A DNA stretch of 64,000 bases, from contig OZ244903.1 in NCBI GenBank assembly GCA_965221625.1, positions 644,685 to 708,684 of the forward strand. Reading direction: 5' to 3'. A program made the translations under genes and the position numbers. The stretch comes from Dehalococcoidia bacterium. Its GTDB lineage: Bacteria > Chloroflexota > Dehalococcoidia > Lucifugimonadales > Lucifugimonadaceae. Shown here piece by piece: positions 1 through 37,449 of the stretch. Position 1 is the first letter of the stretch. Every line of letters begins with the position of its first letter. Below the pieces are notes generated by a model that saw only the letters and a list, made by a program, of their open reading frames with translations, had not been told where the DNA came from and did not search any database.

Positions 1-1915
1 CCAAGATTAATCCGTCTCGCTTGACAACCCAAGTGTGTTTGAGAGCATCCTGGCCAGTTGCTGGGTTATTGAAGATGTAATCGACCCACTTTCCTGACGG
101 TCCGGCGGTCATCAACTCCAACCCGAATCGGTCGCCATCTGGCCCAGTTCCTAAACCTCCGAGTACCGATTCGCCGAGGATTGATTGGTCGGCGTGAGCA
201 ATGGTATTGTCGTTCTCGTCAATGATGAAGACGTACCACTCTCCGTCGACGGCATCGGGCGTGTTGTAGTAGTCAATCGTCGCGTCGCGCCCGTCTGCAT
301 GCAGTCTCGCGAGTGCTTCGTCAACTAAACGTTGAGCATATGCGGCAGGTTCATGGGGCGTCGGGACGTCTTCGTACCATCCGGCACCGAACAACAGTCC
401 GTTGCGGCGCACTGCCCAAGATTGCTTCTTGGCATTCATGCCGGTTGCCGGATTCACCAGATAGTAGGAGACAATGCCGCCGTCCGCACCGACAGCCGCA
501 AGTTCGTATGCGTATTTCCGGCCGGTGAAGTCGGTTCCGATCGGGCCGAACAGGCTTTCGCCGATTAAGGATTGGTCGGCGTGGGCAATGATCTCGTCTT
601 GCTCGTCGATGATGAAGACGTACCACTCGCCGTTGACAGCCTCGGGAGAGTTGTAGAACTCGAGAGTGTCTGACAGTCCGTCGCGCAGGTACTTGCCAAT
701 TGCGGCGTCTACGATCCACTTCGCATACTTCTCGTCGTCGCCAGGCACCGGAACGTCGTCGTACCATCCGGATCCGACGACGATGTCTCCGCGCCGAACT
801 GCATAGGTAAATTTCGGGGCATTCTCACCGATGGCCAAATTCGGGAATACGTATTCGCCCCACGTGCCCGTCTCAGTCGCTTGCAAGATGTCAAAGCCAA
901 ATCGCCGTCCAACGCGGTCAGTGCCGATCTCCTTGGCTACGTCAGCACCGACGGCTTCGGGATTTGCGTGGGCGACCAGCTTGTCGTCGCCGTCAATGAT
1001 GAAGATGTACCACTGACCGTCGATGCTCTCCGTCGAGTTGTAGTACTCGACGGTCGCTTCCAAACCATCGCCGTGCAACCGCGCGAGCGCGGCGTTGACA
1101 AACGCCTCAGTGTATGCCTCGGGTTCGTCTTTCGTTGGTTCATCTTCGTACCAACCGGAGCCGAATAGCAATCCGTCGCGTCTGACCGAGTAGCTGTGCT
1201 TGATGGCGAACTCGCCGGTTTCAGGATGCACGAACCGCCGACGCATCCACGTGCCGTCTTCGGAGGCGGCTAGCAACTCAATGCCGAAGCGATATCCGGT
1301 GTCGTCGATCCCGATCGCGCCTCGTGTGCTTTGGCCGATCGCATCTGGGTTGTAGTGCGAGACAACGTCGTCATTCTCGTCGACGATGTAAACGTAGTAC
1401 TGTCCGTCAAGTGCTTCCGGGCGGTTGTAGTACTCGATAGTGGCGTCGCGTCCGTCTGCTTCGTAGCGTGCTAGGGCAAGTTCGACCAGTTGCTTGGTAT
1501 AGGCCGCCGGATCATCCTTGGTTGGGGTTGGATCGTAGTAACCGGTGCCGAAAATAAGTCCATCGCGCTTTGCGGCGTATGTGTGTTTCGGTGCTTGCGC
1601 GTTGGTCTCGGGGTTGGTGAAGGGGTAGCGGAACCAACCGCCTTCTTCACCGACGGCGAGGAGCTCGAGCCCGAAGCGACGACCCGTCAAGTCGGTACCT
1701 ATCTCCCCAGCAAGCGATTGACCGATAGCGGTTTGGTCGACGTGCGCGACGATTCGATCGTCCTCACCGATGATGAACACGTACCACTGCCCGTCCACGT
1801 TTGCTCGGCCATTGTGGTACCGGAGTGTGGCATCTCGACCTGTTGCAACGTAACGATCGATCGCGTCGTTGACAAGCCACACAGCGTAGGCTTCGGGATC
1901 GGATTTGGACGGCCG
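1..1915 (-). repeat. Five tandem, diverged ~387-nt (129-aa) coding repeats (Cache-like units)
   Basis: The G(Q/E)WYVFI.D motif recurs near 1780, 1400, 1005, 615 and 225. The (D/E)P.AY unit starts recur near 1900, 1516, 1120, 735 and 345. Confidence 0.8.
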
Positions 1916-2478: not shown

Positions 2479-4158
2479 CTATCTGAATGAGCCGGAACCG
2501 GAGGGGCCGCGATGTTGCGAAATGTGGTCTCGTTTGCCCTGTGTTCGCTTCGCCAAGAATCCTTCTCGCACCGGCCACGGCAAGGCACCGGCGCGATCCG
2601 CCCAAGCGTTGTACTCCGCCAACATCGATGCGACGCGTTGGGGTTCGCCGTCTGCGTGATCATGCAGTTCGGTTCGATCTTCCGGAATGTTGTAGAGCTC
2701 CCAAGGACCGTCCCATTCCGAAACCAGTTTCCAATCGCCGATGCGAATGCCGCGATTGCCTTCGTGCTCGACCGTTACCGGTTTCTCACGCAACCATTGC
2801 TTCCCTTCAATTGCCGGCACTATCGACTGGCCTTCAATGGGCGTTATCTCATTGCCGTTGAACTCCGACGGATAGGTGGCACCGATGGCGTCGTAGATCG
2901 TGGCAGAGATGTCGGTGATGTGCATCGGGACGTTGTCGACGATCGTCCCCTGCTTAATCGTGTTCGGCCAGTGGACGATGAAAGGAGTCGAGATTCCGCC
3001 TTCGTGGATCCAGCGTTTGAAGAGCCGGAATGGGGCGTTCGACACGTTCGCCCACGGCAATTCGACTGCTTGGAATGTCGTATCGGGACCCGGACGCAGT
3101 TCAGGTATGTCGCCGACGCGCACCGTTTGTCCATCCAGGGTCGGTCCAGTCTCCCACTGCGACGGGTTTGACCAATCAAGGTCTTCCTGAAACAATTCCG
3201 CGCATCCGCCATTATCGGAGAGGAACATGATTAGTGTGTTGTCGAACTGACCATGCTTCTTCAATGTTTCGATGACACGACCTACGCCGCGATCTACCTG
3301 CTCGATCATGGCGCAGTAGACAGCCATACGAATATCCTCGTACACCTTGTTCTCGACGTCTTCCCAAGGTGGTGCGTCTTCATCGCGTGGTGAGATGGGC
3401 CACTTTTCGTCGACGATGCCGATGCCTTTCTGTCGTTCGTGTCTTGATGCCCGTATCTCGTCCCATCCGCCCATGTAGTTGCCTTCGTACTTGACGATGT
3501 CGTCTTCCCACGCGTGCAAGGGCCAATGGGGTGCTGTAAAAGCGATGTACTGCACGAATGGCGAGCCGTCGTTCACCGCTTCGTCAATCTGCGTTACGGC
3601 ATAGTCGGCGATGGCATCGGTAAGGTGGAAGTCGTTCGATTCAACCTCAATTAGTTTGTCTTGCAGCATCAGACTCTTGGGGTTCCAGAACGAGTCGGCG
3701 GCTTCCAGAAGTCCGAAATATCGATCAAAACCACGCTGAGTCGGCAATGGGTGCCTGGCATCGCCGGGCGTCCATTCGTTGCGGCGTCTTCGGTCGTAAC
3801 CGCCACCTACGTGCCACTTGCCTGACATCAAAGTCCGGTACCCTGCGGTTTGCGCTACCTCCCCGAAAGTTACGGAACTGTCGTTCAGGAATCCTTGATA
3901 GGAAGGCACTCCGAGATCCGCGGTCATCTGGCCAACGCCGGCTTGGTGAGGATGGAGGCCGGTCAACAACGCGGCTCGCGACGGACAACATCGAGCACCG
4001 TTGTACATCTGGGTGAAGCGGATTCCGTTGTAACCGAGCGAATCGAGGTTCGGAGTGTTGATCTCGCCCCCGTAGCAGCCGATGTCTGAGAAACCTAGGT
4101 CGTCGACCATGATGACGATGACGTTTGGCCGATTGTCTTGTTGATGGTCAGTCGTCAT
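2479..4158 (-). CDS. Arylsulfatase (formylglycine-dependent sulfatase family)
   Basis: N-terminal NVIVIMVDDLGFSDIGCYGG and the C-x-P-x-R maturation motif (ARCCPSRAALLTG), plus GKWHVGG. Full-length at 559 aa. Confidence 0.9.
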   Translation of the reverse strand: MTTDHQQDNRPNVIVIMVDDLGFSDIGCYGGEINTPNLDSLGYNGIRFTQMYNGARCCPSRAALLTGLHPHQAGVGQMTADLGVPSYQGFLNDSSVTFGEVAQTAGYRTLMSGKWHVGGGYDRRRRNEWTPGDARHPLPTQRGFDRYFGLLEAADSFWNPKSLMLQDKLIEVESNDFHLTDAIADYAVTQIDEAVNDGSPFVQYIAFTAPHWPLHAWEDDIVKYEGNYMGGWDEIRASRHERQKGIGIVDEKWPISPRDEDAPPWEDVENKVYEDIRMAVYCAMIEQVDRGVGRVIETLKKHGQFDNTLIMFLSDNGGCAELFQEDLDWSNPSQWETGPTLDGQTVRVGDIPELRPGPDTTFQAVELPWANVSNAPFRLFKRWIHEGGISTPFIVHWPNTIKQGTIVDNVPMHITDISATIYDAIGATYPSEFNGNEITPIEGQSIVPAIEGKQWLREKPVTVEHEGNRGIRIGDWKLVSEWDGPWELYNIPEDRTELHDHADGEPQRVASMLAEYNAWADRAGALPWPVREGFLAKRTQGKRDHISQHRGPSGSGSFR

Positions 4159-4210: not shown

Positions 4211-5782
4211 TTACGTGTACGTGGCGTCGGTTTCCATAGGGTAGAGTGGCACGCGTCGGCGGTGATAGGTGAAGGTCGACATATCGGCGGTCGTTACGCC
4301 GGGAGTGTTGACAAGGATTACCTTGCCGGCGATCGGTTGGTAGGCAGGACGCGGAGATACGACGCCTTTGGCAACCACGATTCGATAGCGTTCTGGGATG
4401 ATTCCGATGTGGTACATCTGGGCGCGCACTGTGTTGCCGGTGCGGGCGGAAGTTAAGACGAGTGTTTGGCCGCCTACGGTGTCGAGGCGCACAGTCACAC
4501 CCGAGTTGTAGTACCTGAAACCACCGTGAGACGGGCCGAGCTCTTCGTACTGTCCGTCGGTGATGGCGCGGACTGTGCCGGTGACGGTGACCGGTTTGCC
4601 GTGGAGGTCGTCTGTCTTGCCACCTACGTCGAGCGTGACCGTCGATCCGACACCCGCATTGACGCATGCGTCGACCGATTCGGGATCGTATAGCGTTTGG
4701 ACAAAGCTTGAAATGCCTCGCTTGACCACTTCGGCTAAGATGTGCGTCGAATCGGCCGAGGAACCGCCGCCGATGTTGTCGCCAACGTCCATCAGGACAA
4801 TCGGCCCTTTGCGCACGGCACCGTGTGCGTCAGGCATCGAAAGAGCAGTGCCGTCGGTGGCGACGTGATCCGCTTCATTGAGATCGCGTGGTGCGACATA
4901 GTTGTCGACGGCGAAGTCGAGCGCGTCGGAAATCGAAGCGACCTCCACGTTCAACTCGGCGCGTCGCTCCCATGCCTTACTTGCCATCTCCTTTGCCACC
5001 GATTTGGCGAGGTCGATGTCCCCGTTGTCGGCGATGGCGACCCAGGACATGCCCATCTCCTCGACGTCGGCATACGGGTATCCCTCCGCGACGCTGGTAT
5101 CGAGAATACCGGGCGTTTCATTCGCTGCGACACAATCGGCGACGAACGACCGCATCGGGTCTTCGCCCGTAAACTGCTTCACGATGTTGACATACATCGG
5201 AGGCATCTCGATCCACTGCGCAGGATTAATCTCGCCCTTGACGGTGCGGTAAATCAATTCGGCGGTCTTGCGCCCGCGGACCTTCGGGTCGAGATGCGGG
5301 TTGGTACGCCAAACCACGCAGACGTCGGAATGTTTGACAACCGCTTTTGATACGTTGGCATGCATATCGAGCGTGACGCCGACAGGAATGTCCGGCCCCA
5401 CAATCTCTCGCACGGCGCGACAGAACTCGCCGTCCATGTCTGGATATTCTTCACTTACGGCGGCACCGTGATTTGATATGAGCACAGCGTCCCAAGGTCC
5501 ACCGTCACGCAGCATTCCGAACATCTCGTCGCTGAGGCGGTCATAGGCGTCTTTGGTGATGGTTCCAATCGGCCCGGTTACGGCGTACATGAGAGGCACC
5601 AGCTCGAAGTCGAGTTCTTGCGCGGCCTGAATGTATCCGGAGATGGTGTAGCGTGCGTTGACGTAATGATCGAAGATTTCGTCGCCGCGCCGGATGCCGG
5701 ACCTGACGAATTGCGCGTAGTCCGCGGGAACTGAGGAGAACGTGTTGGTTTCATGGGAGATGCCCAACATCGGGATGCGCAT
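4211..5782 (-). CDS. M81 family metallopeptidase (MlrC-like)
   Basis: MRIPMLGISHETNTFS is the typical MlrC/M81 N-terminus. The second ATG (5782) is preferred because GAAGGAG lies ~7 nt upstream. The ORF track start is 5797. Confidence 0.8.
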   Translation of the reverse strand: MRIPMLGISHETNTFSSVPADYAQFVRSGIRRGDEIFDHYVNARYTISGYIQAAQELDFELVPLMYAVTGPIGTITKDAYDRLSDEMFGMLRDGGPWDAVLISNHGAAVSEEYPDMDGEFCRAVREIVGPDIPVGVTLDMHANVSKAVVKHSDVCVVWRTNPHLDPKVRGRKTAELIYRTVKGEINPAQWIEMPPMYVNIVKQFTGEDPMRSFVADCVAANETPGILDTSVAEGYPYADVEEMGMSWVAIADNGDIDLAKSVAKEMASKAWERRAELNVEVASISDALDFAVDNYVAPRDLNEADHVATDGTALSMPDAHGAVRKGPIVLMDVGDNIGGGSSADSTHILAEVVKRGISSFVQTLYDPESVDACVNAGVGSTVTLDVGGKTDDLHGKPVTVTGTVRAITDGQYEELGPSHGGFRYYNSGVTVRLDTVGGQTLVLTSARTGNTVRAQMYHIGIIPERYRIVVAKGVVSPRPAYQPIAGKVILVNTPGVTTADMSTFTYHRRRVPLYPMETDATYT

Positions 5783-5872
5783 GGATGCTCCTTCCATCAG
5801 GATTGCTGTGCAGGGATCTACGGCATAGGGTACCGCATCGAACGTCTCTGATTGAGTTATCGTTGTGAGTAG

Positions 5873-6520: not shown

Positions 6521-7720
6521 TTGCGGATTTCGAATGTGAAGATTAGGCACGTCTTCGGCGCGCTAGAAACCGACGGTGAGTTCTGGGAAGAGCGATTGGT
6601 GATGCCGTTGGACGTCTACGAAGAGTTCAGGAACTCCAAGCAACGCACCAATGTTGTAACGGCGCAATCGTCCGACAACCGGATGGAGCACGACGCCTAC
6701 TTCATTCAGATCGAAACCGATGACGGTGCGATCGGCATCGGCGGACCAGTCGAGGAAACCGTCGCATACCTCGTTGCTACGCAGTTGGTGCCGCTCTTGC
6801 TGGATCGCGATCCATTAGCGACCGAGTTCCTATGGGACGTCATGCATCGGTCGCAGGTGCACGGACGGCACGGGCAGGCGATGATGGCAATCTCGGTAGT
6901 CGACTGCGCGCTCTGGGATTTGAAGGGCCGCGTCCTGAACGTCCCTGTCTACACCTTGCTAGGTGGTCCGACGCGAGAGCGAATCCCTGCGTACGCCTCA
7001 ATGTTGGGTTTCAACGTCACCGACATGGGTTTAGTGCGCGAACGGGCGCAGTGGGCGAAGTCTCTCGGATATACCGCGCAGAAATGGTTCTTTAGGCATG
7101 GCCCGATGTCTGGTCATATCGGACTGAAGGCAAACGTTGCCTTGGTTGAGACGGTTCGGGACGCGGTTGGCGATGATTACGACATCATGCTGGATTGCTG
7201 GCAATCGATGGACGTCAACTACGTCGTCAAGCTGGCGGGTGCAATTGAGGACTGTGCGCCCAGGTGGCTCGAAGAAGTGGCGATGCCGGATCGCATCGAT
7301 TCGTATCGAAAAATCCGCGAGAAGACTAACATTCCGATCTCAGGCGCTGAGCACGAATACACGCGATGGGGGTTCAAGCGGTTTATCGACGCGGAGGCAT
7401 TGGACATACTGCAACCTGACATTTACTGGGCGGGCGGCATCTCCGAGACATTGAAGATAATGGCCATCGCGACGGCTGCCGACCTAATCACGATTCCACA
7501 CGGTCACTCGTCGCCGGCTGGGATCCATGTTTCGGTCGCGCAATCACCGATCCACACGCCATATCAGGAATACCTGATTAAGTGGAACGCCGTGCACCAG
7601 CACTTCTTAGCCGATCCCGTTGTACCAGTCAGCGGCATGATCGAAATCCCGGACGGTCCGGGAATCGGGATGGATCTCGACGATTCGAAGATCGAGCGCG
7701 AGGAAGATCCCGTCTGGTAG
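6521..7720 (+). CDS. Enolase-superfamily dehydratase, L-rhamnonate dehydratase-like
   Basis: Collinear with E. coli RhmD as I recall it: VVDCALWDLKGRVLNVPVYTLLGG, DIMLDCWQSMDVNY, WLEE, SGAEHEYT, DILQPDIYWAGGI, IPHGHS. TTG start with GGGAGA upstream. Confidence 0.8.
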   Translation: MRISNVKIRHVFGALETDGEFWEERLVMPLDVYEEFRNSKQRTNVVTAQSSDNRMEHDAYFIQIETDDGAIGIGGPVEETVAYLVATQLVPLLLDRDPLATEFLWDVMHRSQVHGRHGQAMMAISVVDCALWDLKGRVLNVPVYTLLGGPTRERIPAYASMLGFNVTDMGLVRERAQWAKSLGYTAQKWFFRHGPMSGHIGLKANVALVETVRDAVGDDYDIMLDCWQSMDVNYVVKLAGAIEDCAPRWLEEVAMPDRIDSYRKIREKTNIPISGAEHEYTRWGFKRFIDAEALDILQPDIYWAGGISETLKIMAIATAADLITIPHGHSSPAGIHVSVAQSPIHTPYQEYLIKWNAVHQHFLADPVVPVSGMIEIPDGPGIGMDLDDSKIEREEDPVW

Positions 7721-30960: not shown

Positions 30961-31341
30961 ATGCCTGAACCCAGCACAGCCTCAGAATACTTTGACCGAG
31001 GTTTGAAATCGGCACAACTCGGCCAACCAGATGCCGCTGCGAAAGACTTCGAGGAGGCGGCTTGGCTCGACCCGGACAATCCCGAAATCCAGTTCAATCT
31101 CGGCACCGCATATCTGAGTATGGGATTCTTCGAACAGGCCGTCGTCAATCTCGATCGGGCGGTGGCGTTGTTGCCTGACAGTTCGGATGCGCTTGGCAAT
31201 CGCGCCGTCGCCTACACCGCGCTGGGGCGAGACGATTTGGCGCAGCAAGACATCGCACGCGCAATCGAACTCGGTGCCCCACCCGATGGCATCCGCGCCA
31301 TTGTCGAGTACGTCAAGGACCGCCGCCGGCCCGCGAATTAG
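30961..31341 (+). CDS. TPR-repeat protein
   Basis: Three TPR-like units (A..DFEEA..LDP.N, FNLG.AY...G....A, A..NRA.AY..LG....A..D...A). Confidence 0.7.
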   Translation: MPEPSTASEYFDRGLKSAQLGQPDAAAKDFEEAAWLDPDNPEIQFNLGTAYLSMGFFEQAVVNLDRAVALLPDSSDALGNRAVAYTALGRDDLAQQDIARAIELGAPPDGIRAIVEYVKDRRRPAN

Positions 31342-31350
31342 ATTCGTACG
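31280..31350 (+). repeat. Left direct repeat (3' end of TPR gene plus stop codon)
   Basis: cacccgatggcatccgcgccattgtcgagtacgtcaaggaccgcc... recurs at 33755. There are 2 mismatches in the first 46 nt, then a more diverged ~25 nt that keeps the in-frame TAG. Confidence 0.85.
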
Positions 31351-31621
31351 TTCCGGTATATTCAGTTTCCAGCAAGTCGAATACGAACGTCAGCCGAACA
31401 CGAACCGGCGGGTTATGTGACCCTCGAATTTTTATCGATCCGTAGGTTGACGCAGATGCCGAGGTATTGGCGCAGCGTGCAATGTAAGCATAATGACCAG
31501 AATTTTCGGCAAGGCGAAAACGTCAAATGCGGCCGTATCAGGGTTCCGAGAAGGCGCGAATCGATGAGAGTAAGATCGCTGCACCACGCACGATCCCGTG
31601 TATGTTCGTGCAATCGGTGCG

Positions 31622-32578
31622 TTAAACGAGCATCGGTTCAGGCTTCATGACGCTCTGTACTCTACTGCGAGCCGCTACAACGTATTCGTCGTTGATGTCA
31701 TACCCGACGTAGTGACGTCCCGATTCGCTTGCCGCAACTGCGGTTGTCCCAGAACCAATGAAAGGGTCCAGAATAACGTCGTCAACGTAGGAATAAAGGT
31801 GGATAAGGCGAAGAGGTAGCTCCAAAGGAAAAGGTGCAGGGTGATTGACTTTCTTGGCACTGGCGGATGGGAAACGCCAAATGCTCTTCGTGCTCTCGAG
31901 GAAGTCATCCCTACCTATGCTGTTCTGCCTTACAGGGTGACGCTTGAATGTTCCTTTCGAAAAGACAAGAATGTACTCGTGTACGTCGCGTAGGACAGGG
32001 TTGCTTGCAGATTGCCAACTTCCCCAAGCACAGGATGTTCCTGCACTGGCACCTTTGTCCCAGATAATCTCGCCGCGCATCAAAAAGCCATTCGTGTGGG
32101 CGATTTCGGTCAGATACAGGTGGAGAGGGATGTAGGGGGAACGTCCGACATTCGCGATGTTGATGCAAGCCCTTCCGCCGTCGACCAAGACCCTGTACAC
32201 CTCGGACATGACCCCTGAAAGCAGGTCCATGTATTCTGGCAAGGTGAGATCCGCGTCGTAGTCCTTTCCAACGTTGTATGGCGGGCTTGTGATCATGAGA
32301 TGTACGGAGTTGTTCGGTAACTGATCCATGTTCCTGCTGTCGCCTACGTGGATTACATCCAACTCGCCGGGAGTGCGCTCCGGTTGGGCAGTTGCGTTCG
32401 CCGGTGTTTCTGGCAGCTCTTGATACAAACGCTGCCCGTAAAATTTGCTGGCGTCGTGGCCGAACCGACCACTCGTACCGAAACTGGATGTTTCGGTTCG
32501 CTTTACAGGCTGTCCCACAACTCGATCCATCTTTGGTACAAAGTCCTTTCCGTCAATAACGTCGGGTCCCGATTCCAA
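31622..32578 (-). CDS. Type II DNA methyltransferase, beta-class; SPPY motif suggests N4-cytosine specificity
   Basis: Motif IV ITSPPYNVG precedes motif I DPFIGSGTT (beta permutation). HPAPFPLELP block also present. Confidence 0.85.
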   Translation of the reverse strand: MESGPDVIDGKDFVPKMDRVVGQPVKRTETSSFGTSGRFGHDASKFYGQRLYQELPETPANATAQPERTPGELDVIHVGDSRNMDQLPNNSVHLMITSPPYNVGKDYDADLTLPEYMDLLSGVMSEVYRVLVDGGRACINIANVGRSPYIPLHLYLTEIAHTNGFLMRGEIIWDKGASAGTSCAWGSWQSASNPVLRDVHEYILVFSKGTFKRHPVRQNSIGRDDFLESTKSIWRFPSASAKKVNHPAPFPLELPLRLIHLYSYVDDVILDPFIGSGTTAVAASESGRHYVGYDINDEYVVAARSRVQSVMKPEPMLV

Positions 32579-32628
32579 CTGATTGGCAAGGTCCTAGTGT
32601 TTTCATTCGCCAACAGCAGTTCCAACGC

Positions 32629-33192
32629 TCAAGCCGAAATCTCAACTCCACGGGGGTTAGTGCCCCTGCGCGGAGGTTTCGTGTACCCATTCTTGCCAAC
32701 TCGATCCAGAACCTGTACTTGTGCGTCTAGCGGGATCAAAGCGAACTTGCCTTGCTTTCCCCAGAGAATGTTGACGTACATCATGTGGCTGGACGGTTGA
32801 CAACTGGCAACGAATGCGTCAATGCGATCCCAGTTAACTGTCCAAAATAGCTTGACTCCGCTTGTACCCGATGTCGATTTCGTCTTGATTGATAGGGGAT
32901 GATGGTTAACGCGGACGTCCAACTCGTGCGAAGTCGAAGGCGGAGAGTCGATCGCGCCAACACCATATAAGTACATGAGAAGGGCTATCAAAACCCTTTC
33001 CCTTGCTGTTCCAACCTCCATGCCCAGTTTCTTGCCTCGTCGGTTTTCCAACTCAACCATGTTGAATAGCGTAGGTAGCACTCGAACGATGCGATCTCGG
33101 TACGGCGGTTCGAATAGTTCGGCGACGAACCGGAGTTCGTGTTTATCTCCCAGTAAGCGTCCTGCGGGAACAGCCATGTCCTCGTTTGCCAT
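32629..33192 (-). CDS. Putative type II restriction endonuclease partner
   Basis: Immediately upstream of and co-oriented with the MTase. No family recognised. Possible PD-(D/E)XK-like stretch SHELDVRVNHHPLSIKTKS. ATG at 33192 preferred over the ORF-track start at 33297. Confidence 0.45.
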   Translation of the reverse strand: MANEDMAVPAGRLLGDKHELRFVAELFEPPYRDRIVRVLPTLFNMVELENRRGKKLGMEVGTARERVLIALLMYLYGVGAIDSPPSTSHELDVRVNHHPLSIKTKSTSGTSGVKLFWTVNWDRIDAFVASCQPSSHMMYVNILWGKQGKFALIPLDAQVQVLDRVGKNGYTKPPRRGTNPRGVEISA

Positions 33193-33754
33193 GTGTATTC
33201 GGTCCGTCCGCGATTTCGCCACCTTTTGGACAGGCAGTGCAGTCAGGTTGCAGAAACGCGGCGTCGGGTACCGTGAATTCCTGGTTTGGTGCCCCAATCA
33301 AGAGCCCTGCGACTTCGAAGATTAGTCCATTTTTCTCGCTCTCAACCGCATCAGAGTCTAGCGACGCTCGACCAATGCCTACTCGTCCGTCTAGGATACG
33401 CCGATTTGTGATTGACAGGTTGAACAAGTGTCAATCCGCAATGCAAGCTCGCGTCGCGGCACTGTAGGGAACTAAGTGGCAACGCGTCACCAGGTTTTGC
33501 CTCCCGGAAGCAGTGCGGTCTTGAGATTTGCTTTCCCAATCTGGTGACGTCAAGATCACACGGGGTCGCCCAAATGTGACCTCACTCAAGTGACATAGAA
33601 ACCTGACCAGAAGAGCAGTCGACATGTCCCGGTACGCTACAGGATTCGCGTTCGACTCATAGCATTAGGTCAGGCGAAAGCTAGTTCGAGCTTTCGAGGA
33701 TCCGGCGACTGTTTTGGTTGGATAGGGCGAGCGATGACGAATATTACTCCAAGT

Positions 33755-33826
33755 CACCCGACGGCATCCGCGCCGTTGTCGAGTACGTCAAGGACCGCCA
33801 TCGGCCTGCCAGATAGAATCGTAGAC
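33755..33826 (+). repeat. Right direct repeat (second copy of TPR-gene 3' end)
   Basis: Encodes PDGIRAVVEYVKDRHRPAR-stop, versus PDGIRAIVEYVKDRRRPAN-stop in the intact gene. Confidence 0.85.
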
Positions 33827-33862: not shown

Positions 33863-34894
33863 ATGCAGATGGCCAAGACGCGTGTCGGCATCATCAACGT
33901 GACCGGCTATGCCGGGGCAGAGCTTGCACGCATCCTCCACCGACACCCGGATATTGAGATTTCGCAGGTTACCGGGCGTTCGGCTGCGGGGAAGCAACTG
34001 AGCGACGTCTATCCGCATCTATTCGACGTCGACTTTGAGATTTCTCCGGCTATCGACGAACCGATAGACTTTCTCTTCTCAGCGTTGCCCCATGCCGCAA
34101 GTGCCGAGGCGATGCAGCCGTTCATTGAGGAGGACATCCCCTCAGTCGACATCAGTGCCGATTTCCGCATCAAGGATCTCGATACGTATGCGCACTGGTA
34201 CAACGTCGAACATCCCTGCCCGCAGTTCATTGAGAACGCAGTTTACGGATTACCGGAGTTGCACCGCGCCGACATCAAACGGAGCAAGCTGGTCGCAAAT
34301 CCCGGATGTTACCCGACGGGGACGGTGTTAGGTCTCGCACCGGCAATCGATGCGGGAATTGTGAGGCCGGATGTGATTAGCGATTCCAAGTCAGGGACGT
34401 CGGGTGCCGGGCGCAAGGCCGACGTCGGGTTCAATTTCGCCGAAGTGAACGACAACATGTCGGCCTACGGGTTGTCCGGGCACCGCCACATGCCGGAGAT
34501 GGAGCAAGAGCTTTCGTCGCTCTCACGCAACGGAGACGTGTCGGTAACTTTCGTTCCTCATCTCGCACCAATGACGCGGGGAATTCTTGGCACGCACTAC
34601 GCCACGCTGAAGGATGGCGTGTCGACTGAGCGTGTCGACGAGATCTACCGTGATTTCTACGCTGATGAACCTTTCGTCAAGGTGACCGAGAATGCGCCGT
34701 CGACGAAGCAAACTTGGGGCAGCAACCACGTCTTGGTCAATGTCAACGTGGATGCGCGCTCCGGACGGCTGATCGTCATCACTGCGCTCGACAATCTCGT
34801 CAAAGGTGCCGCCGGTGCTGCCGTTCAAAACATGAACCTCATGCTCGGACTTGAGGAGGACGCGGGACTGCAGGCTGTAGCCATCTATCCCTGA
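33863..34894 (+). CDS. argC: N-acetyl-gamma-glutamyl-phosphate reductase
   Basis: GIINVTGYAGAEL.R.L..HP, active-site region LVANPGCYPT, and C-terminal DNL.KGAAG.AVQN.NLM.G. Confidence 0.93.
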   Translation: MQMAKTRVGIINVTGYAGAELARILHRHPDIEISQVTGRSAAGKQLSDVYPHLFDVDFEISPAIDEPIDFLFSALPHAASAEAMQPFIEEDIPSVDISADFRIKDLDTYAHWYNVEHPCPQFIENAVYGLPELHRADIKRSKLVANPGCYPTGTVLGLAPAIDAGIVRPDVISDSKSGTSGAGRKADVGFNFAEVNDNMSAYGLSGHRHMPEMEQELSSLSRNGDVSVTFVPHLAPMTRGILGTHYATLKDGVSTERVDEIYRDFYADEPFVKVTENAPSTKQTWGSNHVLVNVNVDARSGRLIVITALDNLVKGAAGAAVQNMNLMLGLEEDAGLQAVAIYP

Positions 34895-34929
34895 TCCTCC
34901 GCGTGCCGGGCGTCGCTAGCCTTGGCTAC

Positions 34930-37449
34930 TTACGAGAAGCGTGATACGGCACGCCCAATTGCACGTATCGCCTCTCGGCGCAACAGCCGGTGCTCGGGCA
35001 GTGTCAAGTCAGCGTCTCGCTTCAACAGACGGTCGGCGGTCGAACGCGCTTGTCCCAATAGTTCCAGATCGTCGAATCTAGCGAAACGCCATCCGCTCCA
35101 ACCGCTCTGGACTTCTGCGAGGTTTCGGCCCGGTCCGCGCAACTCGAGATCACGTTCCGCAAGCTTGAAACCGTCAGCATGTTCGACCAACGCGTTCAAT
35201 CGCATTTCTGCGTTTTCGCCATCGGTATCGGAAATCAATATGCATCTGCTTGCGTGTTCGCCTCTTCCGACTCGCCCGCGAATTTGGTGCAACTGCGACA
35301 GTCCGAATTGATGTGCCGACATGATAACCATGACGGTTGCGTTGGGAACGTCGACACCGACCTCGATAACCTGCGTTGCCGCCAAGACGTCAATATCGCC
35401 TTGCCTAAATCTGTCCATGACGCTTCGCTTTTCGGACAGACTCATCCTGCCATGGAGCATTCCGATCTTCAATTTCGGAAACACATCTGTCCGCAATCGC
35501 TCGTACTCCGTGGTGACGGGAACCGCGTCCAGAGTGTCAGACGGGTCGATTATCGGGCAGACGATGAATGCCTGGCGTCCTTTGCCAATCTCTGACCGCA
35601 CTGTCTGGTACGCTTCGTGGACGTCCATCGGCGTGCGCGCCCACACCGTCTCGATCGGGATTCGCCCGCGCGGCATGGTTCGGAGCGTCGAAAGCTCCAT
35701 CTCGCCGTACATCGTCATGTGCAACGTGCGTGGAATCGGAGTCGCCGACATCGAGAGCATGTGCGGGCGAGGGTTGCGATTGGTCAACACTGCGCGCTGT
35801 TCGGTTCCGAATCGATGTTGCTCATCGACGACAACCAGTGCCAGGTCCGCGAAGTCGACTCCTTCTTGCAGCAGAGCATGCGTGCCGACTACCAGATCCA
35901 CCTCTCCGGCAGCGCACATTTCTTGCATCAACCGTTTGTCACGCTCGCGCATGCTCCCTGTCAACAACCCGATCCTGACGTTGCGCCCACGCCCCGCAAC
36001 CTCGAATATCTGCGATTCGTACACCGGTCCGTAGGTGCTCATGGCTTCGGCACCCCTTAACTGCTCGAGCATGCTGAGGAAGTGCTGTTCCGCCAAGACC
36101 TCGGTCGGCACCATCATCGCCGATTGCTTGACGTTGCGACCGGAAACCGACAACATCGCGCCGATGGCAACCACCGTCTTCCCACTCCCGACTTCGCCTT
36201 GCAGCAAACGGGCCATCGCATGCTCTGCGCTCATGTCCGCCAGGATCCCATCGAGGCTTTCTTGCTGGTCGACGGTCAAAACGAAACCTAAAGACTCCAG
36301 ATACTGGTCGACCAACACCCGGTCTGGATCGATGTTGACGGCTTCGATCTCTTTGCGCCACCGTTCACGGCGGCGGATTGCGGCGATTTGGTTGTAAAGG
36401 AACTCGTCGAATGCCAACCTGCGTTTTGCTGCCCATAGTTGCTGGGCGCGCTGGTTGGCGTCGTTTGGCGGGCGGTGGATCGCAGTAATCGCATCTGCCA
36501 ACGGGATCAAACCATTCTTGGATATGAGATCTCGGGGCAGCGGGTCCTCGACCAACGGGATGCCGTTATCAAGGCATTGCATCACCCCATTCCGTACGGT
36601 GCGTTGGTTTAAGCCGGAGCTCAACGGGTAAACGGGCACCACCGCGCCAGCGTGGATATTGCCTCGCGGGTTCTCTCGACCTCCGCGCGTTACGTCGTCG
36701 TATTCTGGGTTCTCCATTGTGGGGCGACCGCGAAACTCGCTGATTTTGCCACTCACTACGATTCGGTCGCCACGTTGCCAACGGTCGGCGAGATACGGCA
36801 TGTTGAACCAAGTTATTGTCATCACCTCTGTGCCGTCAGAGATGCGGACGCGTGAGTGTCTGTTGCGACCGCCGAATCTCGAAACCTGCGAACTCAGCAC
36901 CTCGCCTACCACAGTGGCATCGTCGCCTACTGATAGTTCGAGGATTTTCGACGTTCGAGAATAGTCGATATGTCGCAGCGGGAAGTGTCGCAACACGTCG
37001 CCGAGAGTCGCCAGACCGAGTTGTTGAAATGCTTGTTTGGCGGCGCGATGCAAGAACCGCAGATCTGCGACTTCTCTGTCGAGGCCAGTCTTGGGAGACT
37101 TGCGTGACGGTTGGCTGCGAGTGGAGTTGGGTTGCCGACGCACTGGTCTGGGAGCGCGTGGCGTTTCTTTCGGTTTCGGAGTTTGAACCAGCGTTGCCGG
37201 ATGCGTGCTGCTCTGCAAAGTGTGCAAGACCGCCGTTCGCCAAGCCTTTCGTTCGCCGACGCTCAATGAGGAGTAACGTCGGCCATTCATCGGCGGAAGG
37301 TTGCGTACGGCGGCGAGACCAGACAGGTTACTCAGCATGCCGTCTAAACCGGAGCCGATGACGGCTCCGTTGTTGAATCCGAGGCGCGCTTCGAGATTGA
37401 GAACGTCGACTAGCGTTTTGGTTTGACGATCAGCATCTTGTTCGATCAT
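34930..37449 (-). CDS. recG: ATP-dependent DNA helicase RecG (with long N-terminal extension)
   Basis: Wedge/OB region, helicase motif I GEVGSGKT, DEQHRFG, SATPIPRT, and HQLRGRVGRG near the C-terminus. Confidence 0.92.
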   Translation of the reverse strand: MIEQDADRQTKTLVDVLNLEARLGFNNGAVIGSGLDGMLSNLSGLAAVRNLPPMNGRRYSSLSVGERKAWRTAVLHTLQSSTHPATLVQTPKPKETPRAPRPVRRQPNSTRSQPSRKSPKTGLDREVADLRFLHRAAKQAFQQLGLATLGDVLRHFPLRHIDYSRTSKILELSVGDDATVVGEVLSSQVSRFGGRNRHSRVRISDGTEVMTITWFNMPYLADRWQRGDRIVVSGKISEFRGRPTMENPEYDDVTRGGRENPRGNIHAGAVVPVYPLSSGLNQRTVRNGVMQCLDNGIPLVEDPLPRDLISKNGLIPLADAITAIHRPPNDANQRAQQLWAAKRRLAFDEFLYNQIAAIRRRERWRKEIEAVNIDPDRVLVDQYLESLGFVLTVDQQESLDGILADMSAEHAMARLLQGEVGSGKTVVAIGAMLSVSGRNVKQSAMMVPTEVLAEQHFLSMLEQLRGAEAMSTYGPVYESQIFEVAGRGRNVRIGLLTGSMRERDKRLMQEMCAAGEVDLVVGTHALLQEGVDFADLALVVVDEQHRFGTEQRAVLTNRNPRPHMLSMSATPIPRTLHMTMYGEMELSTLRTMPRGRIPIETVWARTPMDVHEAYQTVRSEIGKGRQAFIVCPIIDPSDTLDAVPVTTEYERLRTDVFPKLKIGMLHGRMSLSEKRSVMDRFRQGDIDVLAATQVIEVGVDVPNATVMVIMSAHQFGLSQLHQIRGRVGRGEHASRCILISDTDGENAEMRLNALVEHADGFKLAERDLELRGPGRNLAEVQSGWSGWRFARFDDLELLGQARSTADRLLKRDADLTLPEHRLLRREAIRAIGRAVSRFS

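What the first reader, a model, noticed from the sequence alone, without database searches (positions are those of the whole stretch)
31280..33826. Restriction-modification islet inserted at a TPR gene 3' end, bracketed by ~70-bp direct repeats that duplicate the stop-codon region
The last ~60 nt of the TPR gene plus ~10 nt downstream (31280-31350) recur at 33755-33826. There are only 2 mismatches in the first 46 nt.

The second copy keeps the reading frame and an in-frame TAG at the same position: PDGIRAVVEYVKDRHRPAR-stop versus PDGIRAIVEYVKDRRRPAN-stop.

The 2.4 kb between the copies contains only a DNA methyltransferase, a small co-oriented ORF and ~740 nt of non-coding DNA. By eye it is more AT-rich than the flanks. 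There is no integrase, transposase or tRNA.

This is the footprint of an insertion with a long target duplication, or an att-like duplication. That mode has been described for mobile R-M units in comparative genomics of other bacteria.
Basis: partly seen in the sequence, partly recalled or inferred. Interest (0 to 1): 0.65.

Follow-up and report, generated by a model that had tools for sequence, protein, structure and literature searches.

The report
Restriction-modification islet with duplicated target
A 2.4-kb foreign DNA piece carrying a restriction enzyme gene (now broken) and its partner methylase gene sits between two neighbouring genes of a Dehalococcoidia bacterium, flanked by a 69-base duplicate of the insertion site; this way for such gene pairs to move is already described, and the case is a clean but ordinary example.

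Summary
Bases 31280-31348 and 33755-33823 are a 69-nt direct repeat (60/69 identical) that occurs nowhere else in the window.

The 2406 nt between the copies is a minus-strand Type II restriction-modification (R-M) operon:
An in-frame TGA cuts off its last 42 codons.
- An intact N4/N6 amino-methyltransferase gene.

The islet is the most deviant stretch of the window in composition: GC 52.7% against 56.9±1.0% (z −4.1), tetranucleotide z +6.2.

Three related Dehalococcoidia genomes (ArgC 69-77% identical) have the empty site. There, one TPR gene stop is followed about 60 nt later by argC. The two window copies are each other's closest relatives.

No integrase, transposase, tRNA, terminal inverted repeats or hidden gene was found.

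Homologous ThaI-like R-M pairs elsewhere are bracketed by unrelated target-derived repeats of about 50, 126 and about 240 nt. Counting the window, that is 4 of 7 independent contexts.

This meets every criterion of "insertion with long target duplication" (Nobusato 2000; Furuta 2010). It is an old, decaying insertion and a new member of a known kind. The insertion chemistry is still unknown.

The parts
30961..31341 (+). TPR-repeat protein gene (126 aa), the target gene. It is intact because the duplicated segment includes its stop codon.
   Evidence: Pfam TPR_1/TPR_2 and related families. Orthologues next to the formyltransferase gene in 38 loci. 78-82% identical orthologues in the empty-site genomes.
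31280..31348 (.). Left copy of the 69-nt direct repeat: the last 59 coding nt of the TPR gene, its TAG, and 7 nt beyond.
31349..33754 (.). Inserted islet, 2406 nt, foreign in composition (GC 52.7%).
   Evidence: Absent from L002, L162-164 and L165. GC z -4.1 and tetranucleotide z +6.2.
31622..32530 (-). Intact beta-class N4/N6 DNA amino-methyltransferase gene (302 aa). Motif IV is SPPY and motif I is DPFIGSGTT.
   Evidence: PF01555, 153 bits. 77% identical over 288 aa to the L169 methylase. PDB relatives 2zie and 8s9m, an N4-cytosine methyltransferase.
32503..33192 (-). ThaI-family Type II restriction endonuclease gene. Read through, it is 229 codons, and its natural end overlaps the methylase start by 28 nt.
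   Evidence: PF15514, 135 bits. Homologues 66-71% identical and about 210 aa long. Read-through translation restores the conserved C-terminus ...RWIELWDSL. Aligns to ThaI structure 3NDH residues 30-223.
32629..32631 (-). Premature in-frame TGA at codon 188 of the endonuclease gene, where homologues and ThaI have Glu. It removes the last 42 residues.
   Evidence: The same base is present in contigs of two independent runs, word depth about 200 and about 8.
33193..33754 (.). 562 nt upstream of the endonuclease gene with no recognisable gene or RNA. Presumed promoter region or decayed cargo.
   Evidence: No Pfam hit at E<=1 for any ORF. No Rfam hit. No homology to the upstream regions of other units.
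33755..33823 (.). Right copy of the 69-nt direct repeat. It is a displaced TPR 3' end at the ancestral distance (71 nt) from the argC start and lies in only a 32-codon ORF.
33869..34894 (+). argC (N-acetyl-gamma-glutamyl-phosphate reductase), the gene that directly follows the TPR gene in empty-site genomes.
   Evidence: Pfam. Gene calls. Synteny in L002, L162 and L165.

Best explanation
A minimal Type II restriction-modification unit entered the chromosome of a Dehalococcoidia lineage by horizontal transfer. It consists of a ThaI-like endonuclease gene followed by an overlapping amino-methyltransferase gene, with no mobility gene.

It inserted at the 3' end of a conserved TPR gene, just upstream of argC. 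The insertion duplicated 69 bp of the target, including the stop codon, so the TPR gene stayed whole and a spare copy of its 3' end was left next to argC. This is the mode known as 'insertion with long target duplication'.

The insertion is old. The two copies have drifted to 87% identity, and the endonuclease gene has since acquired a nonsense codon, so the locus now most likely works only as a solitary methyltransferase. From family membership, its target is probably m4C at CGCG.

What is shown: the insertion, the duplication, the foreign origin, the absence of a recombinase, the nonsense codon, and recurrence of the same footprint in homologous units.

What is inferred: the chemistry. The most likely route is illegitimate joining of a linear or circular R-M fragment at a widely staggered break (or at a replication fork), followed by fill-in of the single-stranded overhangs. 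That would account for long, variable duplications with no sequence specificity. Selection then keeps only insertions at gene ends.
For: - Repeat confirmed and unique.
- R and M identified.
- Three empty-site genomes have a single target copy, and both window copies align to it.
- The copies are sisters: 87% to each other against 67-71% to the outgroups, with 7 shared derived positions.
- Composition is an outlier.
- No integrase, transposase, tRNA, Pfam or Rfam hit in the islet, and no terminal inverted repeats.
- Homologous R-M pairs are bracketed by unrelated target-derived repeats: L169 49-52 nt at 94%, L176 126 nt at 95%, L179 about 240 nt at about 94%. The inserts are 1565-2259 nt, hold only R and M, and each has lower GC than its flanks.
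- Insert ends are not conserved between units.
- The nonsense codon is present in two independent runs.
- All criteria of Furuta et al. 2010 (PMC2853133) are met. That paper also notes that such repeats often span a stop codon and so leave the target gene intact.
Against: - The repeats are only 87% identical, so the duplication was not seen fresh. Identity at the time of insertion is assumed.
- No genome closer than 77% ArgC identity is available, so the timing is coarse, and no empty or occupied polymorphism within the species could be seen. Only assembled contigs were available for the runs that hold it.
- The joining mechanism has no direct evidence, here or in the literature.
- Junctions do not coincide with CGCG sites, so the unit's own enzyme is not implicated by sequence.
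- 3 of 7 homologous contexts have no flanking repeat.
Confidence: 0.82

Rival explanations
1. Campbell-type integration. A circular molecule carrying the R-M pair and one copy of the TPR 3' end (for example, excised earlier from a related strain by recombination between its repeats) integrated by a single homologous crossover at the resident TPR 3' end. This regenerates two non-identical direct repeats at once.
For: The repeats are 87% rather than 100% identical, and all four repeat pairs found are 87-95% identical, as expected if donor and recipient copies already differed. This corresponds to the re-invasion step of the life cycle hypothesised in PMC2853133.
Against: It still needs an original insertion with duplication to create the first repeat. 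A 69-bp, roughly 90% identical substrate is a poor one for homologous recombination. Derived changes are spread about evenly over both copies (3 against 2, with 4 ambiguous), as expected from drift in place. No donor lineage is known.
Confidence: 0.1
2. Site-specific (att-type) integration of an island whose integrase acts in trans or has since been deleted. The 69-nt repeat would then be attL/attR.
For: Integrative elements commonly carry a replacement for the 3' end of the target gene. About 830 nt of the islet has no recognisable function and could be decayed cargo.
Against: No integrase or remnant in or beside the islet, and no tRNA. Homologous units sit in four unrelated targets with repeat lengths from about 50 to about 240 nt and no common core or conserved ends. 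The L179 insert is 1565 nt, leaving no room for anything but R and M. The TPR 3' end is not duplicated in 36 other loci that carry the orthologue.
Confidence: 0.05
3. The R-M pair is ancestral at this position, and the three relatives lost it independently by recombination between the repeats.
For: Direct repeats do promote deletion. All relatives available are fairly distant (ArgC 69-77%).
Against: It needs three independent precise losses. The islet is compositionally foreign. The two copies share 7 derived positions against all outgroups, so the duplication post-dates the split from them. The closest R-M homologues (66-71%) lie in unrelated genomes and contexts.
Confidence: 0.02
4. Assembly artefact or chance similarity.
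For: The source contig is a long-read metagenome assembly at about 8x depth.
Against: An identical 3.3-kb sequence is held in contigs of two independent runs, one at word depth about 200. Chance expectation for the repeat is zero in 100 shuffles.
Confidence: 0.01

Closest known systems
R-M 'insertion with long target duplication' (Nobusato et al. 2000, Gene 259:99; Furuta, Abe & Kobayashi 2010, NAR 38:2428, PMC2853133)
   Same: An R plus M gene pair alone in a small insert. Long (>30 bp) direct repeats derived from a target that is single-copy in an empty-site genome. No mobility genes. Deviant GC. The repeat spans a stop codon so the target gene stays intact, as in the H. influenzae 46-bp cases that overlap gene 3' ends.
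   Different: The host phylum (Chloroflexota, Dehalococcoidia) and the R-M family (ThaI-like) are not among the published cases: neither 'ThaI' nor 'Chloroflexi' appears in that paper. The repeats are more diverged (87% against mostly 93-100%) and the R gene is already inactivated, so this is an older, decaying example. Here the same footprint recurs in 4 of 7 contexts of a single R-M family.
ThaI restriction endonuclease (Thermoplasma acidophilum; PDB 3NDH; Pfam PF15514). From my own knowledge it recognises CG^CG.
   Same: Clear sequence homology over nearly the whole fold (E 2e-41 to 3NDH residues 30-223). Paired with a cytosine-compatible amino-methyltransferase.
   Different: Distant from ThaI itself. 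The gene is cut by a TGA 42 codons before its end. Specificity is not tested.
Integrative islands with att repeats at gene 3' ends (tRNA or tmRNA type)
   Same: Direct repeats that duplicate a gene's 3' end and keep the gene intact.
   Different: No integrase, a protein-coding target, and no conserved core among homologous units.
Solitary (orphan) DNA methyltransferases derived from decayed R-M systems
   Same: Intact M next to an R gene with a nonsense mutation.
   Different: Activity of M and loss of R activity are inferred, not measured.

Membership tests
R-M insertion with long target duplication (criteria of Furuta et al. 2010) | Both an R and an M gene homologue lie in the inserted sequence | tested here: met
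   PF15514 ThaI, 135 bits, and PF01555, 153 bits
R-M insertion with long target duplication (criteria of Furuta et al. 2010) | Insert shorter than 20 kb | tested here: met
   2406 nt between the repeats
R-M insertion with long target duplication (criteria of Furuta et al. 2010) | Target duplication longer than 30 bp | tested here: met
   69 nt, 60/69 identical
R-M insertion with long target duplication (criteria of Furuta et al. 2010) | Both repeats align to one copy at an empty site in a related genome | tested here: met
   L002, L162-164 and L165: TPR stop, then about 60 nt, then argC
R-M insertion with long target duplication (criteria of Furuta et al. 2010) | No mobility-related genes in or beside the unit, and no tRNA target | tested here: met
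   Neighbours are mutS2, a hydrolase, a formyltransferase, TPR, argC, recG and degV. No Pfam hits in the non-coding parts. No tRNA.
R-M insertion with long target duplication (criteria of Furuta et al. 2010) | The repeat is not a multi-copy genomic element | tested here: inconclusive
   Only two copies in the 64-kb window, and not duplicated in 36 other loci. The rest of the 1.2-Mb contig could not be scanned.
ThaI-family Type IIP restriction endonuclease (PF15514 / 3NDH) | Sequence match above the family threshold | tested here: met
   135.4 bits against a cut-off of 25. E 2e-41 to 3NDH.
ThaI-family Type IIP restriction endonuclease (PF15514 / 3NDH) | Complete open reading frame covering the fold | tested here: not met
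   TGA at 32629-32631 removes 42 conserved C-terminal residues, including the invariant Trp of the homologue alignment
ThaI-family Type IIP restriction endonuclease (PF15514 / 3NDH) | Cleavage at CG^CG | not testable with these tools
   Needs an enzyme assay. There is no CGCG avoidance in the host (O/E 0.92, against 0.94-1.03 in relatives).
Beta-class N4/N6 DNA amino-methyltransferase (PF01555) | Family match, with motif IV (S/D/N)PP(Y/F) ahead of the AdoMet motif FxGxG | tested here: met
   153 bits. SPPY and DPFIGSGTT are visible in the alignment. Full length compared with homologues.
Beta-class N4/N6 DNA amino-methyltransferase (PF01555) | Base modified (m4C or m6A) and target site | not testable with these tools
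   m4C is inferred from the SPPY motif and from pairing with a CGCG-type enzyme (my own knowledge). PDB relatives include N4-cytosine methyltransferases.
Site-specific integrative island | Integrase or recombinase gene, and a conserved att core shared by family members | tested here: not met
   No such gene. Four homologous units have unrelated repeats and unrelated ends.
Transposon-like R-M unit / IS composite | Terminal inverted repeats, a transposase, and a short fixed-length target duplication | tested here: not met
   No inverted repeat pairs the islet ends. No transposase. The duplications are long and variable.

The most novel reading that the evidence does not exclude
ThaI-like R-M pairs may be self-sufficient minimal mobile elements. 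On this reading the R and/or M proteins themselves, or the chromosome breaks they provoke, drive integration with long, variable target duplications at gene 3' ends. The high hit rate in this one family (4 of 7 independent contexts, with inserts as small as 1565 nt holding nothing but R and M) would then make it a workable model for settling a mechanism that has been open since 2000.
Probability: 0.2. Interest if true: 0.7.

Novelty: new member of a known kind. Interest (0 to 1): 0.35.

Why it matters
This is a well-documented example of a restriction-modification gene pair moving on its own, in a phylum (uncultured Dehalococcoidia) and an enzyme family (ThaI-like) where this had not been recorded. 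It shows the late stage of the cycle: drifting repeats, a broken nuclease gene and a surviving methylase.

The more useful by-product is that homologous units in other genomes carry the same kind of footprint with different targets and lengths. That points to a property of the unit or of its way of entry, not of the site. It also offers a compact family in which to test how long target duplications arise.

For genome annotation, it explains the stray TPR 3' end upstream of argC, and it flags the endonuclease gene as a pseudogene.

Tried and rejected
- **Searches for closer relatives or within-species polymorphism.**
  - No ArgC between 77% and 100% identity exists in the protein collection.
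  - The runs that hold the sequence are available only as contigs and show no empty-site joint.
  - A Hi-C run from the same study had no reads on the region.
- **Wider survey of R-M homologue contexts.**
  - The viral-contig scan gave only 6 distant hits (28-33% identity), which were not informative.
  - tblastn against plasmids found nothing.
  - The quota of contig look-ups limited the survey to 7 independent contexts. L180 turned out to be the same insertion as L168, and L177 is a sub-fragment of L176.
- **Hidden genes or RNAs in the roughly 830 nt of non-coding islet DNA.**
  - No Pfam hit at E<=1 and no Rfam hit.
  - No similarity to the HTH or small ORFs found upstream of R in L168 and L169.
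- **Promoter and terminator scan.** The counts are no higher than in shuffled sequence.
- **Conserved insert ends or junction motifs.**
  - None were found.
  - CGCG sites do not mark the junctions, and L169 has none nearby.
- **CGCG avoidance in the host as a trace of past restriction.** There is none: O/E 0.92, the same as in relatives without the system. The O/E values printed for other sites came from a script slip and are superseded.
- **The TPR 3' end as a recurrent hot spot.** It is not duplicated in 36 other loci.
- **A HicA identity for the L169 target.** The evidence is weak (Pfam E 0.008, below threshold). It is supported only by the reconstructed C-terminus and is kept as a remark.
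Full report
**Observation**

The window carries a 69-nt direct repeat at 31280-31348 and 33755-33823. It is 60/69 identical, with a start-to-start spacing of 2475. A 37-nt core of it matches only these two places in 64 kb, and matched nowhere in 100 dinucleotide-preserving shuffles. In the whole window only one other direct-repeat family of 35 nt or more lies within 6 kb, and that is a tandem coding repeat at 170-1822.

The left copy is the last 59 coding nt and the TAG of a 126-aa TPR gene (30961-31341), plus 7 nt. The right copy keeps the frame and the stop, but lies in only a 32-codon ORF. One small correction: there are 2 mismatches in the first 45 nt, and 3 in the first 46.

**What lies between the copies**

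The 2406 nt hold a minus-strand operon of two genes.

- **The endonuclease gene.** The upstream gene (ATG at 33192) matches Pfam PF15514, restriction endonuclease ThaI, at 135 bits.
  - Its homologues in the 5.8-billion-protein collection are about 210 aa long and 66-71% identical. They all continue past the window protein's end, with a conserved tail ...W.RD.SLL.ER.LY.RWIELWD.L.
  - Translating through the window's TGA at 32629-32631 restores exactly this tail (...ISWNRDPTLLTERTLYQRWIELWDSL) and runs to a natural stop at about 32503.
  - The read-through protein aligns to the solved ThaI structure 3NDH over residues 30-223 of 225. The stop falls where ThaI and the homologues have Glu.
  - The same sequence, without a single difference over 3.3 kb, is held in contigs of two independent public runs, at word depths of about 200 and about 8. 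The stop is therefore not an assembly error of the 8x source contig.
- **The methyltransferase gene.** The downstream gene (32530-31622) overlaps the natural end of the first by 28 nt.
  - It is an intact PF01555 amino-methyltransferase (153 bits), 77% identical over 288 aa to a homologue's partner methylase.
  - Motif IV is SPPY and motif I is DPFIGSGTT.
  - Its PDB relatives include N4-cytosine methyltransferases.
- **The rest of the islet.** The remaining 271 + 562 nt give no Pfam hit at E<=1 in any ORF, no Rfam hit, no tRNA and no excess of promoter- or terminator-like sites.

**Host and empty sites**

The window comes from a 1.22-Mb contig of an ENA metagenome assembly. By ArgC similarity the organism is a Dehalococcoidia bacterium. 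The protein collection holds no relative between 77% and 100% ArgC identity.

Three relatives were read:
- L002 (a 2.7-Mb MAG chromosome, ArgC 75%);
- L162-164 (ArgC 77%);
- L165 (ArgC 69%).

All have formyltransferase(-), TPR(+), argC(+), with 57-61 nt between the TPR stop and the argC start and no R-M genes.

In a five-way alignment the left window copy continues the TPR gene, and the right copy continues into the argC leader. Both align to the single copy of the relatives. Over the 69 nt the two window copies are 87% identical to each other and 67-71% identical to the outgroups. They share 7 positions that differ from all three outgroups. The duplication therefore arose in the window's lineage after it split from these relatives.

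Derived changes are spread over both copies: 3 in the left, 2 in the right, and 4 ambiguous.

**Composition**

The islet has GC 52.7%, against 56.9±1.0% for 568 same-sized windows. This is z −4.1 and the lowest of all. Its tetranucleotide distance from the rest is z +6.2, the highest of all. GC3 of both R-M genes (0.58-0.59) is below that of six of the seven neighbouring genes (0.64-0.70). The formyltransferase gene is about the same, at 0.60.

**The same footprint in homologous units**

Contexts of eight homologous endonucleases were fetched. They represent six further independent insertions.

With long repeats:

| Locus | Repeat | Position | Context |
|---|---|---|---|
| L169 | 49-52 nt, 94% | 5811-5859 / 7608-7656 | Between a prophage terminase and portal gene |
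| L176 | 126 nt, 95% | 3267-3392 / 5652-5777 | Two DCC1-like gene fragments flank the pair |
| L179 | about 240 nt, about 94% | 3820 to ~4065 / 5597 to ~5840 | Covers the 3' end of a portal gene and the following spacer |

- In L169, joining the upstream flank to the downstream flank restores a plausible HicA-like C-terminus.
- In L176, removing the insert and one repeat restores a 108-aa ORF.
- L179.

Without long repeats:
- L167, in an IS-rich region;
- L168/L180, one vertically inherited insertion that also carries an HTH gene;
- L178, after an ATP synthase operon.

Counting the window, 4 of 7 independent contexts show long direct repeats that bracket only R and M. The repeats are unrelated in sequence, differ in length from about 50 to about 240 nt, and in every case lie at or near the 3' end of a host gene. 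The inserts are 1565-2406 nt, each has lower GC than its flanks, and their ends share no motif. Orientation relative to the target gene varies.

**Mechanism**

These features fit the class that Kobayashi's group defined by genome comparison as 'insertion with long target duplication'. Its criteria are: R and M both in the insert; an insert under 20 kb; a duplication over 30 bp; no mobility genes; and repeats that align to a single copy at an empty site (PMC2853133). All are met here. The one reservation is that repeat copy number could be checked only in the window, not in the whole genome.

That paper also reports that such repeats often span a start or stop codon, which leaves the target gene intact, and that the mechanism is unknown. 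It suggests a property shared by all R-M types, such as double-strand breakage.

My reading has two layers.
- **Shown:** a horizontally acquired, recombinase-free R-M unit inserted with a 69-bp duplication of its target.
- **Inferred:** joining happened at a widely staggered break or a fork, with fill-in of the overhangs, and selection kept insertions that spare genes.

The unit's own canonical cleavage is not implicated. CGCG sites do not mark the junctions, and L169 has none nearby.

**Age and present function**

- The 13% divergence between the copies is a little under half of the divergence from genus-level relatives in the same segment, so the insertion is old.
- This fits with the nonsense codon in R and an apparently intact M. 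The locus most likely survives as a solitary methyltransferase.
- The three homologous units with 94-95% identical repeats all have full-length R genes. With n = 4, this is only suggestive of a decay series.
- The host shows no CGCG avoidance: O/E 0.92, against 0.94-1.03 in relatives without the system.

**Rivals**

- **Campbell-type crossover.** A circle carrying the unit plus one diverged repeat would explain the non-identical repeats and cannot be excluded (about 0.1). It presupposes an earlier insertion of the same kind.
- **att-type integration.** This is disfavoured by the lack of any recombinase or tRNA, by the unrelated targets and repeat lengths in homologous units, and by the 1565-nt L179 insert, which has no room for other genes.
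- **Ancestral presence with three losses.** This is contradicted by the shared derived positions and by the composition.
- **Artefact or chance.** This is excluded.

**Verdict**

Both the observation and the interpretation hold. This is a new member of a known kind: a clean but old and decaying example, in a new phylum and a new enzyme family.

The recurrence of the footprint within this one R-M family is the most useful lead, and is worth a systematic survey. Interest is modest (0.35).

Noticed in passing
window 34895-34930 (just downstream of argC), compared with L002 9024-12600 and L162 6027-8240: Gene order breaks right after argC. In L002 and L162, argC is followed by methyltransferase(-), HAD hydrolase(-) and phosphoribosyltransferase(-). 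In the window that block lies upstream of rlmN in the opposite orientation, and argC is followed by recG(-) and degV(-). A rearrangement breakpoint therefore lies about 1 kb from the R-M islet. RecG is not found upstream of rlmN in L002, so this is not a simple inversion.
   Followed up: partly
window 170-1822: Five head-to-tail copies of a 387-nt unit, 63-82% identical to the reference copy. Probably a repeated protein domain.
   Followed up: no
window, whole: GGCC is strongly under-represented (O/E 0.58) and GATC moderately so (0.74), while CGCG is not (0.92). This may reflect other restriction systems in this genome.
   Followed up: no
L168 5594-7595 and L180 3528-5505: The same ThaI-like R-M pair, with a divergent HTH_3 gene (controller-like), sits between a PALP enzyme gene and a 2-hydroxyacid dehydrogenase gene in two different assemblies. 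This is one vertically inherited insertion without flanking repeats.
   Followed up: partly
L179 4001-4066: The endonuclease ORF as called (232 aa) starts at an ATG inside the target-derived repeat, so its first 22 or so codons come from duplicated host sequence and not from the R-M unit.
   Followed up: partly
window 32145-32167 and 32256-32278: In runs X1 and X2 a second, unrelated contig shares two 23-nt stretches with the methylase gene. This points to a related methylase in another organism of the same samples.
   Followed up: no
homologue list: About 15 of the 119 listed ThaI-like homologues are clearly short (108-191 aa, against about 210). This hints that truncation of the endonuclease is common in this family, although some may simply be cut by contig ends.
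   Followed up: no
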